The position numbers were made by a program. From the IMG/VR virus record IMGVR_UViG_2529292985_000022: a stretch of DNA of 21,752 bases, one strand, 5' to 3'. The DNA is from a virus. Lineage: Duplodnaviria; Heunggongvirae; Uroviricota; Caudoviricetes. The first letter of the stretch is position 1, and each line of letters starts with the position of its first letter. Shown here piece by piece: positions 15,001-18,000 of this stretch.

Positions 15001-18000
15001 CTAATGCAGCTGGATGTTGCCACCAGTTTTCGGGCAACACTTTAGCGGGGGAGTGCCCCTATTAAGTTGTCAAGCATGTTATGACCCCTGCGGGGTATAA
15101 AAAGTCCCGTCACGCATCATGGCGAACAGAACGTCGCAGCGTCGTCTCGCCAGGGCGATAAGCGCCTGATTGTGTCGTTTTCCCTGACTCATTTTGCGGG
15201 TGTAGTAAGCCCTGGAGAGCGGATCCCTGAGCGCGGCGAAGGCCGACAGGAACAACGCCCGTTTGAGAGCTTTATTACCCCGTCGCGAGGGATGCTCACC
15301 GCGTATTGACGAGCCGGATCGCCGAGTTACCGGCGCAAGGCCAGCATAAGCAGCGAGATGTGCGGCAGAGGCGAAGGCGCGGCAGGCGACCTCGGTGAGG
15401 AGTCTGGCTGCGGTCCTGACACCGACTCCGGGCATACTGGTCAGGACCGGGTAAAGAGGGTGAGCAAGAACTCGCTGTTCTACCTCAAGCGCCACCTCGT
15501 CTCTTTGCTTACGCAGCGTGATGAGCTGGAGTGCCAGACGTGGCAGTACTACGGCAGCGGCATTCGTGCCGGGAACGACGACGGTTTGTTCGGCCAGTGC
15601 CTGAGCTATGTCTGCTGCAAGGCGTTTACCCAGACGAGGCGCAAGTTTGCAGAGCTGGGCTGCCAGCTTCTTCTCACCCAGCGAAGCGAGTTTTTCTGGT
15701 GAGGGATATCGCTGGAGAAGAGCGAGTACCGCCGGGTGCTCAAGTCTCGGACCGAGAACGCGCTCCAGTGCCGGATGTATCTGGGGCAGAAGGCCGCGGA
15801 TACGGTTGCTGGCCTGCGTTGTCTGTGCGGCAAGATCATCATCGAAGCCGCAGAGCATGGAGAGTTCGGCGATTTGCTCGTCAGCCAGTTTCAGTGTGCG
15901 TAGCGCGTGAGGCAGGGTACGGGCAGCTTCGGCAATGATGGCAGCGTCACGAGCATCAGTTTTAGCTTCACCGGCGTGTAAGTCGGCTATGCGGCGCATG
16001 GCCAGTCCAGGGAGGTATCCGACAAGGACTCCTTCTGAGCGGGCAACGGCGACAGGTAACGCACCGATGGTAGCTGGCTGATCAACAACCAGCAGTATCT
16101 GACCATGTTGTTTCAGGTCAGATATTAGCGACCTGAGTTTGTTTTCGTCGTTGGGTAATGCTTTATCGAACAGGCGTTTACCTGAACGATTAATGGCAAC
16201 AGCGTGATGCGTATCTTTACCGACATCAACGCCGATAAAGACCTGGACGGATTCGTAATCGCTGGATTCGGTCATTCTGTCTCCCTTGTATATGGGTTAA
16301 CCAGATAACCACGGGGAGCAGGTACCGGCATCCACGTTACAGACGGTCCCGGCAAAAGTGCCTGACCTGACCCCTATTAGGGTTACCAGCGCCCCACCAG
16401 ACCCGGTGACATCACCCCCCGGATCATGGACGACTGGGGGCAGTAATCATGCCGGGTCTGGCTGGCTAACACCCCATTATAAGGGGTACGAATAAAGTAA
16501 CGGGGGCATCAACCGGCTGTTTTAATGCTTCGGCGTAATCGGCAGACCAGCCAACTCGCACCAGAAACACGGGCTGACCGCTGGCGCGAAATTTCGCCGC
16601 CAGCTTCCCGGCGCGATTAACTACCTCATCGGCAGTATGTGGACCACCGGCAAAAGGTAAGATGCCTTCTTGTAAATCGATCACCACCAACGCAGTGGTT
16701 TTAGCATTAAGTTCAAGCATGCTGACTCCTGAAAAAACAAAATCGTGCCTCACACCTTAATGCGATTAGCCGATGGCGGAACGACAAATTTTGTTAATTT
16801 TTATGAGTTCGGGCAACACCTTTATAGCAAACTGGCGTAGAGTCTGATTTCAGGCCCGATATAAAGTGGTAACGAGGCGTTCCAGCGCGGGCCAGGCTCT
16901 TACGGTGCGGCAGAATTTCCAGTATAATAGCCGCCTTTTTTCATTCAGTTGTGACATACAGCTAACGCTGCGACTTGGTCACCTGCGCAGCAGGGGGCAT
17001 CCGCCGGCAGCTAAGTTAAGGGATATCTCATGCGTACAGAATATTGTGGACAGCTCCGTTTGTCCCACGTGGGGCAGCAGGTGACTCTGTGTGGTTGGGT
17101 CAACCGTCGTCGTGATCTTGGTAGCCTGATCTTCATCGATATGCGCGACCGCGAAGGTATCGTGCAGGTATTTTTCGATCCGGATCGTGCGGACGCGTTA
17201 AAGCTGGCCTCTGAACTGCGTAATGAGTTCTGCATTCAGGTCACGGGCACCGTACGTGCGCGTGACGAAAAAAATATTAACCGCGATATGGGGACCGGCG
17301 AAATCGAAGTGCTGGCGTCCTCGCTGACTATCATCAACCGCGCAGATGTTCTGCCGCTTGACTCTAACCACGTCAACACCGAAGAAGCGCGTCTGAAATA
17401 CCGCTACCTCGACCTGCGTCGTCCGGAAATGGCTCAGCGCCTGAAAACCCGCGCTAAAATCACCAGCCTGGTGCGCCGTTTTATGGATGACCACGGCTTC
17501 CTCGACATCGAAACTCCGATGCTGACCAAAGCCACGCCGGAAGGCGCGCGTGACTACCTGGTGCCTTCTCGTGTGCACAAAGGTAAATTCTACGCACTGC
17601 CGCAATCCCCACAGTTGTTCAAACAGCTGCTGATGATGTCCGGTTTTGACCGTTACTATCAGATCGTTAAATGCTTCCGTGACGAAGACCTGCGCGCTGA
17701 TCGTCAGCCTGAGTTTACTCAGATCGATGTGGAAACTTCTTTCATGACCGCGCCGCAAGTGCGTGAAGTGATGGAAGCGCTGGTGCGTCATTTGTGGCTG
17801 GAAGTGAAGGGCGTGGATCTGGGCGATTTCCCGGTAATGACCTTTGCGGAAGCAGAACGCCGTTATGGTTCTGATAAACCGGATCTGCGTAACCCGATGG
17901 AACTGACCGACGTTGCCGATCTGCTGAAATCTGTTGAGTTTGCAGTATTTGCGGGGCCGGCGAACGATCCGAAAGGCCGTGTTGCCGCTCTACGTGTTCC

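What the first reader, a model, noticed from the sequence alone, without database searches (positions are those of the whole stretch)
15053..16501. IS110-family element splitting yecD, with a candidate bridge RNA in its 226-bp left end
A 398-aa IS110-type DEDD recombinase sits between two yecD halves that rejoin seamlessly (...DAP | [11 protein letters not shown]...), with no inverted repeats or target duplication, as expected for IS110-family insertion. The asymmetric non-coding ends (226 bp upstream, ~26 bp downstream) match the IS110-group layout in which the upstream end encodes a structured guide RNA (the bridge RNA of IS621) that specifies target and donor recognition. This left end has a TATAAT hexamer ~20 nt inside the terminus (16481..16476, minus strand) and a 10-bp long-range inverted repeat CCAGACCCGG/CCGGGTCTGG (16397..16406 vs 16452..16461), as a structured RNA would. 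If it is a bridge RNA, its loops should show complementarity to the yecD target (around GATGCCCCC|TCCCCCGCT) and to the element's own ends.
Basis: partly seen in the sequence, partly recalled or inferred. Interest (0 to 1): 0.75.

Follow-up and report, generated by a model that had tools for sequence, protein, structure and literature searches.

The report
ISEc20 insertion with bridge RNA
This is a copy of the catalogued insertion sequence ISEc20/ISSfl4 sitting in the yecD gene. Its upstream end encodes a conserved, folded guide ("bridge") RNA of the kind already described for this transposon family, so the finding is correct but largely expected.

Summary
Window 15053..16501 (minus strand) is a 1449-bp copy of ISEc20/ISSfl4, and removing it restores intact yecD exactly. 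It has no terminal inverted repeats and no target duplication. It encodes a 398-aa DEDD/Tnp recombinase, with a 226-bp left end (LE) and a 26-bp right end (RE).

- Across 59 relatives (73-99% protein identity; Enterobacteria, Burkholderiales, Microbacteriaceae) the LE folds into a 5' hairpin plus two stem-closed loops. Compensatory base changes support the stems strongly.
- The first loop carries ACUGCCCCC and GGGGGGU. These match the natural target, a run of C on each side of the insertion point, seen at about 50 independent ISEc20 sites.
- The second loop carries UAAUAGGGGU, which matches the RE tip, and GUAACGU, which is complementary to the joined RE-LE ends. A G/A difference in the RE is mirrored in the loop in 13 elements.
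- Order and spacing copy the IS621 bridge RNA.
- Durrant et al. 2024 already list ISEc20/ISSfl4 as IS110-group with the RNA in the LE.

Two corrections. The TATAAT is the loop of the 5' hairpin, not a credible promoter. The likely promoter forms only when RE and LE are joined. This copy also has a private 1-nt deletion next to the donor guide.

No expression or activity data exist. Rating: new member of a known kind, modest interest.

The parts
15053..16501 (-). ISEc20/ISSfl4 insertion sequence (IS110 family, IS110 group), 1449 bp. It carries one copy of the 2-nt core, at its right tip.
15079..16275 (-). Recombinase/transposase gene, 398 aa. It has an N-terminal DEDD RuvC-like domain and a C-terminal Tnp domain. 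The SGSS motif aligns with the catalytic-serine region of IS621.
15053..15078 (-). Right end (RE), 26 bp. It contains the -35-like TTGACA (15068..15073), the left-donor segment TTAATAGGGGC (15055..15065) and the donor core AC (15053..15054).
   Evidence: All 56 relatives with a recognisable RE keep TTGAC[AGT] 5-6 nt upstream of ATAGGG.
16276..16501 (-). Left end (LE), 226 bp. It starts with the right-donor segment GTTAC (16497..16501). The -10-like TACTTT lies at 16494..16499.
16313..16488 (-). Candidate bridge RNA, about 176 nt (LE positions 14-189). The ends are inferred from the fold and from the position of the junction promoter.
16470..16488 (-). 5' stem-loop UACCCCUUAUAAUGGGGUG.
   Evidence: helix 1, with compensatory changes in 3 of 5 pairs
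16397..16461 (-). Target-binding loop module. It is closed by the stem CCAGACCCGG/CCGGGUCUGG. Left target guide ACUGCCCCC lies at 16436..16444. Right target guide GGGGG plus core guide GU lies at 16414..16420. A putative handshake pair GA lies at 16412..16413.
16313..16395 (-). Donor-binding loop module. It is closed by the stem GGGGCGC/GCUCCCC. Left donor guide UAAUAGGGGU lies at 16370..16379. The apical hairpin lies at 16346..16367. Right donor guide GUAAC plus core guide GU lies at 16334..16340. A putative handshake pair GG lies at 16332..16333. One G is missing near 16380 compared with other copies.
16502..16720 (-). 5' part of yecD (…QPVDAP). Its last 9 nt, GATGCCCCC (16502..16510), are the left target plus core.
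14705..15052 (-). 3' part of yecD ([11 protein letters not shown]…). Its first bases, TCCCCC (15047..15052), are the right target.

Best explanation
The segment is a copy of ISEc20/ISSfl4, an IS110-group insertion sequence. It inserted site-specifically into the tract GCCCCC-T-CCCCC of yecD by RNA-guided recombination of the IS621 type.

RNA and promoter. The left end encodes a bridge RNA of about 176 nt, made of a 5' hairpin, a target-binding loop and a donor-binding loop. When the element is excised as a circle, RE and LE are joined. This places a -35 (TTGACA, in the RE) 17 bp from a -10-like hexamer (TACTTT, LE 3-8). The RNA would then be made from about LE position 14.

Donor recognition. 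[quoted passage not shown] Target recognition. [quoted passage not shown] The preferred target is therefore a run of about 9-10 C.

Core and exchange. The recombinase (DEDD domain plus a serine-bearing Tnp domain) would exchange strands at a 2-nt core. That core is AC in the donor and usually CC in the target.

What is shown: element identity and boundaries, the conserved covarying fold, guide-to-DNA complementarity, the target logo, and the conserved junction -35.

What is inferred: transcription, RNA ends, the register of the core, the handshake positions, and all of the chemistry (by analogy with IS621).
For: Identity and boundaries.

Published classification: 'ISSfl4 | LE | IS110 | ISEc20;ISSfl4' in the Durrant et al. 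2024 supplement.

Fold. In the alignment of 59 distinct LEs, the named structure has 95% of cells paired, against 28-52% when partners are slid. It has 21 pairs with compensatory changes, against 5-9 in the slid controls, and 0 of 500 shuffles reach any measure. RNAalifold independently finds both closing stems and the donor-loop hairpin.

Donor guides.
- A 9-nt sense match to the RE tip and an 8-nt antisense match to the RE|LE junction are each reached by about 1% of dinucleotide shuffles.
- RE ...ATAGGGACAC goes with loop ATAGGGAC in 13 elements, and ...ATAGGGGCAC goes with ATAGGGG in the others. No A/G mispairing is seen; two elements carry U at that loop position against a G-type RE.

Target.
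- 52-53 unique ISEc20 left flanks have C at -1..-4 in at least 92% of sites.
- 33 unique right flanks have C at +1..+4 in at least 91% of sites.
- These match the invariant CCCCC and GGGGG of the first loop.
- One relative (L046) has the right guide GGGGUG and a right flank starting ACCCC.

Promoter. All 56 relatives with a recognisable RE keep TTGAC[AGT] at the same distance from the tip. The geometry equals that of IS621 (sequences; the promoter statement for IS621 is).

Protein. The Tnp domain aligns with the solved IS621 and ISCro4 recombinases, E 1e-14 and 2.5e-12.

Architecture. Guide order and spacing parallel IS621.
Against: - There are no transcript, binding or activity data for this element.
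- For this single copy, the target-guide matches alone are not significant. A 7-nt LTG match is reached by 15% of shuffles and a 6-nt RTG match by 55%.
- CCCCC and GGGGG can pair with each other, and RNAalifold draws them as a helix. They are invariant, so covariation cannot tell a stem from a pair of guides.
- Three relatives with altered left guides (CCGCC, CCTCC) do not show matching flanks.
- The upstream part of the left guide is only weakly reflected in flanks (34 of 59 matches against 28 expected, p about 0.02).
- The junction -10 of ISEc20 matches only 3 of 6 consensus positions.
- The left donor guide does not pair with the core.
- This copy lacks one G at the base of the donor loop, a variant seen in 1 of about 100 copies, so it may be impaired.
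Confidence: 0.85

Rival explanations
1. The conserved LE structure is a cis-acting leader that controls transposase translation or stability, or a protein-binding end. On this view it is not a trans-acting guide. The C-run target and the element ends would be recognised by the protein, and the complementarities would be side effects of G- and C-rich sequence.
For: The target-loop matches are not significant on a single sequence. CCCCC/GGGGG could be an ordinary helix. Altered left guides in L011, L015 and L036 are not mirrored in their flanks.
Against: The donor-loop matches are specific: 9 nt and 8 nt, each reached by about 1% of shuffles. One covaries with the RE in 13 elements. The layout copies the experimentally proven IS621 RNA. 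The L046 right-guide variant matches its flank. Seven right junctions read GTTA(C/T), exactly what the right donor guide GUAAC would pair with.
Confidence: 0.07
2. The RNA is of the bridge type, but this particular copy is a decaying, immobile relic. Its 1-nt deletion at the base of the left donor guide would shift or weaken the donor loop, so the copy no longer moves by itself.
For: The deletion removes the G of a conserved G:C pair (column 144 with 199; G:C in 57 of 59 sequences, G:U in one, and the G missing only in this copy). It is found in only this one of about 100 ISEc20 copies examined, whereas the 1450-bp form occupies 42 distinct sites.
Against: The ORF is intact at 398 aa. All four guides and all other stems are unchanged. 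Bridge RNA from another copy could act in trans (shown for IS621). A sequencing error cannot be excluded.
Confidence: 0.3
3. One reading: the RNA is made constitutively from the integrated copy, using the TATAAT at 16481..16476 as its -10.
For: It is a perfect TATAAT. Proteobacterial relatives keep GATAAT or TACAAT at the same place.
Against: - No -35 lies at 16-18 bp, and the scan finds no promoter in 14950..16800 on either strand.
- The hexamer is the loop of a hairpin whose stem covaries.
- Actinobacterial relatives replace it with a longer hairpin that has no such hexamer.
- The RE -35 is conserved in 56 of 56 relatives.
- Read-through from yecD, which has the same orientation, is an alternative source of transcript.
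Confidence: 0.1

Closest known systems
IS621 (E. coli) bridge recombinase and its 177-nt bridge RNA (Durrant et al. 2024, PMC11208160; Hiraizumi et al. 2024, PMC11208158)
   Same: - Same family and group.
- The RNA is encoded in the LE, upstream of the gene.
- Same order of parts: 5' hairpin, target loop, donor loop, with the left guide on the 5' side and the right guide on the 3' side of each loop.
- Similar spacing. Left to right target guide is 24 nt here against 25 nt in IS621. Left to right donor guide is 39 nt against 34 nt.
- Similar size: about 176 nt against 177 nt.
- A 2-nt core with an invariant second base.
- The -35 in the RE and the -10 in the LE have the same geometry around the core.
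- No inverted repeats and no duplication.
   Different: - The proteins share only about 36% identity, and only over the C-terminal domain. This protein is 398 aa against 326 aa.
- The core is AC in the donor and CC in the target, not CT.
- The target is a low-complexity C-run, which makes the two target guides complementary to each other.
- The far-left target positions are barely used.
- The left donor guide does not pair with the core.
- There is no experimental evidence for this element.
ISBma3 (Burkholderia) and unnamed relatives in Duganella, Paraburkholderia, Ralstonia and Microbacteriaceae
   Same: 79-82% protein identity. They share the same ends GTTAC…ATAGGG[G/A]CAC, the same C-run flanks, the same RNA fold and nearly the same guides.
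   Different: Stems differ by compensatory changes. The 5' hairpin is longer in actinobacterial copies. The junction promoter spacer is 18 bp rather than 17 bp. The left donor guide covers 8 nt (AUAGGGGC) rather than 9-10 nt.
IS1111-group elements with seekRNA or a bridge RNA in the right end (for example ISEc11, listed as 'RE / IS1111' in Durrant et al. 2024)
   Same: The same recombinase family and the same RNA-guided principle.
   Different: In those elements the guide RNA lies downstream of the gene, in a long RE. Here the RE is only 26 bp and the structured RNA is in the LE.
ISCro4/IS622 (engineered bridge recombinase; solved structure 9t56)
   Same: The C-terminal domain is homologous (E 2.5e-12).
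   Different: It is a close relative of IS621, not of ISEc20. ISEc20 is not mentioned in the main text of the preprint describing the 72-orthologue human-cell screen; its supplements were not searched.

Membership tests
IS110 family insertion sequence | N-terminal DEDD (RuvC-like) domain and C-terminal Tnp domain with a conserved serine | tested here: met
   PF01548 at 2e-48 and PF02371 at 9e-22. NF033542 scores 237 bits against a cutoff of 140. RRSGSSIRG aligns with YESGSSVRG of IS621, and KTDARDA aligns with KTDTVDA.
IS110 family insertion sequence | No terminal inverted repeats and no target-site duplication; site-specific insertion | tested here: met
   No repeat pair joins the termini. 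Removing the element restores yecD exactly. About 50 sites share a C-run target.
ISEc20/ISSfl4 (named element) | Near-identity to the catalogued element over its full length | tested here: met
   99.4-99.7% identity over 1449 bp to copies annotated as ISEc20 family. It is 1 nt shorter than the usual 1450 bp. ISfinder itself could not be queried.
IS110 group (as opposed to the IS1111 group) | Long non-coding left end carrying the RNA, and a short right end | tested here: met
   LE is 226 bp and RE is 26 bp. The published table lists ISEc20;ISSfl4 as 'LE / IS110'.
Bridge RNA | Conserved structured RNA with two stem-closed internal loops | tested here: met
   95% of cells paired, 21 compensatory pairs, 0 of 500 shuffles, and slid controls at 28-52%. 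RNAalifold agrees.
Bridge RNA | Donor loop: the 5' guide has the sequence of the RE tip, and the 3' guide is complementary to the core plus the start of the LE. Both covary with the ends. | tested here: met
   TAATAGGGG (9 nt) and GTAACGTG (8 nt), each reached by about 1% of shuffles. G/A covariation between RE and loop in 13 elements. The right donor guide and the LE start are invariant, so there is no covariation test for them.
Bridge RNA | Target loop: guides match the left (sense) and right (antisense) halves of natural targets and covary with them | tested here: inconclusive
   The match holds: invariant CCCCC/GGGGG against a logo of C4-5|C4-5. Covariation is thin: one supporting case (L046), three non-supporting cases (L011, L015, L036), and a weak signal for upstream positions (p about 0.02).
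Bridge RNA | Promoter reconstituted at the RE-LE junction of the circular form | tested here: inconclusive
   -35 TTGACA (6 of 6), a 17-bp spacer and -10 TACTTT (3 of 6). The -35 is conserved in 56 of 56 relatives, whose -10 is usually TACTAT. No circle junction was found in assemblies.
Bridge RNA | The RNA is expressed, is bound by the recombinase and is required and sufficient to specify target and donor | not testable with these tools
   This needs RNA sequencing and recombination assays.
Bridge RNA | Hit to a curated covariance model | not testable with these tools
   Rfam 15 gives no hit here. It also gives none on the authentic IS621 left end, so the library has no such family.

The most novel reading that the evidence does not exclude
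The natural junctions of the ISEc20/ISBma3 clade may record mechanism that has not been described for bridge recombinases.

1. The donor core (AC) and the usual target core (CC) differ at the first base. The left junction is CC in 52 of 53 unique sites and is never AC. The right junction is AC in 35 of 49 unique sites and CC in 14 of 49. This is not the reciprocal pattern expected from a symmetric two-strand exchange across a 2-nt overlap. It would fit asymmetric, top-strand-first transfer.

2. About 14% of right junctions abut GTTA(C/T) instead of a C-run. At least two of these are rearrangements next to the RE whose right-flank endpoint natively reads 'C-rich + GTTAC', a mimic of the left junction; one is a mapped deletion of about 1.3 kb. 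This suggests that the left target guide and the right donor guide together recognise the left junction. That would mean excision is RNA-guided, and that it can misfire into adjacent deletions.
Probability: 0.3. Interest if true: 0.55.

Novelty: new member of a known kind. Interest (0 to 1): 0.3.

Why it matters
For genome annotation, this explains a yecD pseudogene as a site-specific insertion of a catalogued IS. It also gives a base-by-base guide map for ISEc20/ISSfl4, an element found in about a quarter of complete E. coli genomes and in Shigella.

For the bridge-recombinase field, it adds a well-sampled natural system with an unusual core (AC in the donor, CC in the target) and a poly-C target. 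It comes with roughly 50 natural ISEc20 sites and about 60 related elements. These could be mined for rules on core mismatch, on guide use, and on whether excision is RNA-guided. None of this changes the known picture unless the junction asymmetries prove to be mechanistic.

Tried and rejected
- Rfam at gathering and at E<=10 gave no relevant hit. The control on a real IS621 left end is also negative, so this result is uninformative.
- TATAAT as a promoter was rejected.
- Alternative core registers were rejected. In one, the core lies after TGCCCCC. In the other, the core is GT in the donor and TC in the target. The first predicts 2 extra nt at the left junction that are not there. The second leaves no shared base between the two cores. 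The register AC/CC fits the yecD empty site, the position of G about 6 nt before GTTAC in flanks, the L046 variant, and the IS621-like distance of the -35 from the core.
- I first read 'left junction CC, right junction AC' as clean evidence for top-strand-only inheritance. A stricter count showed CCC tails at 14 of 49 right junctions, sometimes at the same sites as CAC tails. The claim is downgraded to an unexplained asymmetry.
- Mid-distance relatives with different guides could not be obtained. The protein search lists only hits of 79% identity or more. The profile scan of viral contigs returned almost only ISEc20 copies.
- A search for assembled RE|LE circle or tandem junctions found only a tandem dimer with a CCC spacer on plasmid pO177B3, and none in viral contigs.
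- I did not build my own covariance model. It would only re-find the sequences it was built from.
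Full report
WHAT IS THERE

The minus strand of 15079..16275 encodes a 398-aa protein. It matches Pfam DEDD_Tnp_IS110 (2e-48) and Transposase_20 (9e-22). It also matches the NCBIfam equivalog 'IS110 family RNA-guided transposase' at 237 bits against a cutoff of 140. Its C-terminal domain aligns with the solved IS621 and ISCro4 recombinases, including the SGSS serine region. 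The KTDARDA acidic motif aligns with KTDTVDA of IS621.

The whole 1449-bp segment 15053..16501 is 99.4-99.7% identical to copies that RefSeq annotates as ISEc20. There are 2392 such places in 1464 of 5426 complete E. coli genomes.

Joining base 15052 to base 16502 gives a sequence 100% identical to uninterrupted yecD in 824 genomes. There is no duplication, and no inverted repeat links the two ends.

No complete E. coli genome in the collection carries this yecD junction. The same site is occupied in Shigella flexneri SFBU1023, in a record named E. coli ECMA0423, and in an IMG/VR contig. The window is thus probably from Shigella or a close relative. The element has the same orientation as yecD.

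THE LEFT END IS A CONSERVED, COVARYING STRUCTURE

A scan of one genome per species returned 80 loci. They include ISEc20 copies and relatives at 73-82% protein identity in Burkholderiales (the ISBma3 family) and in Microbacteriaceae.

Their left ends align from the first base (GTTAC) to beyond a strictly conserved CGUGGAUGCC. RNAalifold on 59 distinct sequences finds two long closing stems and an apical hairpin.

I wrote down a structure with a 5' hairpin, the two closing stems, a 3-bp mini-hairpin and the apical hairpin, and counted its pairs.
- 95.0% of cells are standard pairs, against 28-52% when the partners are slid by 1-3 columns.
- 21 pairs show changes on both sides, against 5-9 in the slid controls.
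- 179 cells are compensatory, against 10-37 in the slid controls.
- None of 500 shuffles reaches any of the observed measures.

In relatives it changes to CCAGGCCCGG/CCGGGCCUGG, CCAAGUUCGG/CCGAACUUGG, and so on.

The single-sequence fold of this copy is only modestly better than shuffles (z -2.2 and -1.7). The case rests on the comparative evidence.

THE UNPAIRED SEGMENTS MATCH THE DONOR AND THE TARGET

Positions below are LE positions; window coordinate = 16502 minus position.

Donor loop.
- LE 123-132, UAAUAGGGGU, has the sequence of the RE tip TTAATAGGGGC (9 identical bases, then a U opposite G).
- LE 162-169, GUAACGUG, is the exact reverse complement of CAC|GTTAC, the sequence made when RE and LE are joined.
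- Each of these two matches is reached by about 1% of dinucleotide shuffles of the LE.
- Thirteen relatives from two distant groups (Duganella/Rugamonas and Microbacteriaceae) have RE …ATAGGGACAC and also carry AUAGGGAC in the loop. Elements with …ATAGGGGCAC carry AUAGGGG. No A/G mispairing is seen; two elements carry U at that loop position against a G-type RE.

Target loop.
- LE 58-66 is ACUGCCCCC, and the yecD left flank is GATGCCCCC.
- LE 82-87 is GGGGGG, and the right flank is TCCCCC.
- For this one copy these matches are not significant. They are reached by 15% and 55% of shuffles, because the LE is rich in G and C runs.
- The stronger evidence is the natural target. From 185 loci I extracted 52 unique left flanks and 40 unique right flanks of ISEc20.
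- The left flank is C at -1..-4 in at least 92% of sites. At -5 it is 60% C and 23% G. The base before the C-run is G in 50% of sites.
- The right flank (33 sites of the C class) is C at +1..+4 in at least 91% of sites and C at +5 in 67%.
- The same flanks surround the relatives.
- The target is therefore a run of roughly 9-10 C cut in the middle, which is what invariant CCCCC (sense) and GGGGG (antisense) would specify.
- One relative, L046, has GGGGUG instead of GGGGGG, and its right flank begins ACCCC. A sister copy in the same genome has GGGGGG and a flank beginning CCCCCC.

Counter-evidence on the target loop.
- Three elements with changed left guides (CCGCC twice, CCUCC once) do not show the change in their single flanks.
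- The three bases upstream of the C-run in the left guide agree with flanks only slightly more than chance (34, 21 and 22 matches of 59, against 28, 18 and 19 expected; summed p about 0.012).
- CCCCC and GGGGG could pair with each other, and RNAalifold draws them so.

I therefore rate target-loop covariation as inconclusive and donor-loop covariation as met.

REGISTER AND CORE

IS621 provides the frame (Durrant et al. and Hiraizumi et al.). The left guides include the 2-nt core at their 3' end. The right guides run RT/RD, then core position 9, then core position 8, then two 'handshake' bases. The top strand is cut 3' of the core.

Applied here, the donor reads …TAATAGGGGC-AC-GTTAC… and the yecD target reads GATGCCC-CC-TCCCCC. 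This register fits four facts.
- It fits the empty site.
- It fits the usual G about 6 nt before GTTAC in flanks.
- It fits the L046 variant.
- The -35 hexamer of the RE ends 13 nt before AC, exactly as the -35 of IS621 ends 13 nt before CT. This last point is my reading of the IS621 sequences.

On this register the right target guide plus the following base (GGGGG-GU-G) is perfectly complementary to the right junction product CAC|CCCCC. The right donor guide plus two bases (GUAAC-GU-GG) pairs with CC-(C/A)C|GTTAC. This resembles the post-exchange 'handshake' pairing described for IS621. That assignment is tentative, because position 7 is C in both donor and target.

PROMOTER

The stem of that hairpin covaries. 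Actinobacterial relatives replace the loop with a longer hairpin that has no such hexamer. No -35 is suitably placed, and the consensus scan finds no promoter on either strand of 14950..16800.

In contrast, TTGACA sits in the RE (15068..15073). All 56 relatives with a recognisable RE keep TTGAC[AGT] 5-6 nt before ATAGGG. Joined to the LE, this hexamer lies 17 bp (18 bp in relatives) from TACTTT (usually TACTAT in relatives) at LE 3-8. Of those positions, T3, A4, C5 and T8 are invariant.

This is the arrangement reported for IS621, where the RE carries the -35 and the LE the -10. It would start the RNA near LE 14, giving about 176 nt up to the closing stem at LE 189, against 177 nt for IS621. 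The -10 of ISEc20 itself is weak (3 of 6). Read-through from yecD is another possible source of transcript in this copy.

COMPARISON WITH WHAT IS KNOWN

The supplementary tables of Durrant et al. 2024 place ISEc20 and ISSfl4 in one cluster labelled 'LE' and 'IS110'. They also place ISEc20 in a phylogenetic cluster with IS110, ISBma3 and others. The family-level prediction is therefore already published.

I found no paper in the searchable library that describes the ISEc20, ISSfl4 or ISBma3 RNA itself. Rfam 15 has no bridge-RNA family, since it does not detect the authentic IS621 RNA.

The element is a new, uncharacterised member of a known kind.

THIS COPY

Compared with about 100 other copies, this one alone lacks a G at LE ~122 (AACC-CUAAU against AACCGCUAAU). 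That removes a conserved G:C pair at the base of the left donor guide. The usual element is 1450 bp. The ORF is intact. The copy may be impaired, or the difference may be a sequencing error.

SIDE OBSERVATIONS

First, seven of 40 unique right flanks begin GTTA(C/T) instead of a C-run; about 0.2 would be expected by chance.
- In Shigella L008/L009, the left junction equals that of an intact yegL-ibsA intergenic insertion in E. coli CM IVRI KOL-1 (GGTTTCCCCCC|IS|TCCCCCTGG). However, the RE abuts an internal mdtA sequence whose native context is GTTCCGC|GTTACC. This is a deletion of about 1.3 kb next to the RE.
- For L092, the native context of the right flank is GGTATCCC|GTTACG, and the left flank is not contiguous with it.
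- For L180, the uninterrupted site CACGCCCC|GTTACC exists in many genomes, so that case is a direct insertion.
- These sites mimic a left junction (C-rich, then GTTAC). They fit recognition by the left target guide together with the right donor guide, the pairing that excision would need.

Second, the left junction is CC in 52 of 53 unique sites and never AC. The RE tail is CAC in 35 of 49 unique right junctions and CCC in 14 of 49, with both alleles sometimes at one site. This is not the reciprocal outcome expected from a 2-nt heteroduplex. It may reflect independent hits by two donor variants. It may instead reflect asymmetric strand transfer, as proposed for another IS110 element in a 2025 preprint. 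I could not decide between these.

VERDICT

The finding is ordinary for the family, with some useful natural-history detail.

Noticed in passing
L008/L009 (1-3194), L084, L092, L108, L126, L180; native sites in L186 1480-1520 and L188 80-110: About 14% of unique ISEc20 right junctions read …GGGGCAC|GTTA(C/T)… instead of |CCCCC. One is a deletion of about 1.3 kb next to the RE (ibsA to mdtA) that ends at a native GTTCCGC|GTTACC site. One is another rearrangement, ending at GGTATCCC|GTTACG. One is a direct insertion at CACGCCCC|GTTACC. The sites mimic the element's own left junction.
   Followed up: partly
all ISEc20 loci (L001-L009, L082-L217); window 15053-15055 and 16502-16503: The core is asymmetric. 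The two bases left of the LE are CC in 52 of 53 unique sites and never AC. The RE tail is CAC in 35 of 49 unique right junctions and CCC in 14 of 49, with both alleles sometimes at the same site. This is not the reciprocal pattern expected from a 2-nt heteroduplex.
   Followed up: partly
window ~16380 (LE position ~122): This copy has a private 1-nt deletion (G) at the base of the left donor guide. It removes a conserved G:C pair. It was seen in 1 of about 100 copies, and the usual element is 1450 bp.
   Followed up: yes
window 15052; L002/L003 right flank; L100/L202: The occupied yecD site shows three alleles just right of the element: TCCCCCGCT here (equal to intact yecD), CCCCCCGCT in Shigella flexneri SFBU1023 and ECMA0423, and TCCCCGCT in an IMG/VR contig. 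These could be independent insertions, later changes, or homopolymer sequencing errors.
   Followed up: no
L221 (E. coli SMN197SH3 plasmid pO177B3) 290-3200: Two ISEc20 copies lie in direct tandem, separated by only CCC (…GGGGCAC-CCC-GTTAC…). The same arrangement occurs in strain SMN152SH1 and on the SMN197SH3 chromosome. It is not a clean circle-type junction.
   Followed up: partly
L010-L081: The same element type is found in Burkholderiales and in Actinobacteria (Microbacteriaceae) at 73-82% protein identity. It keeps GTTAC…ATAGGG[G/A]CAC ends, poly-C flanks and the same RNA. This implies transfer across phyla with the target preference unchanged. Several Microbacterium copies (L066-L080) have no recognisable right end within about 140 bp of the gene.
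   Followed up: no
L114, L116, L117, L119 and 15 other metagenome loci: One recurrent site (left flank GCGTGAAGCCCC) carries an ISEc20 left end that is interrupted by unrelated sequence at or before LE position 105 (AGGTAAACAGGATGACTAAAAATAC…). This is probably another insertion inside the bridge-RNA region.
   Followed up: no
window 1027-20837: The rest of the window is lambdoid prophage tail genes (tape measure, tail tip J, tail fibre, an NleC-like effector) next to aspS and yecD. It is 93-95% identical to STEC genomes, but no E. coli genome covers more than 74% of it.
   Followed up: no
L189 1400-1900 (authentic IS621 left end): Rfam release 15 has no model that detects the experimentally proven IS621 bridge RNA. 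Rfam negatives say nothing about bridge RNAs.
   Followed up: yes
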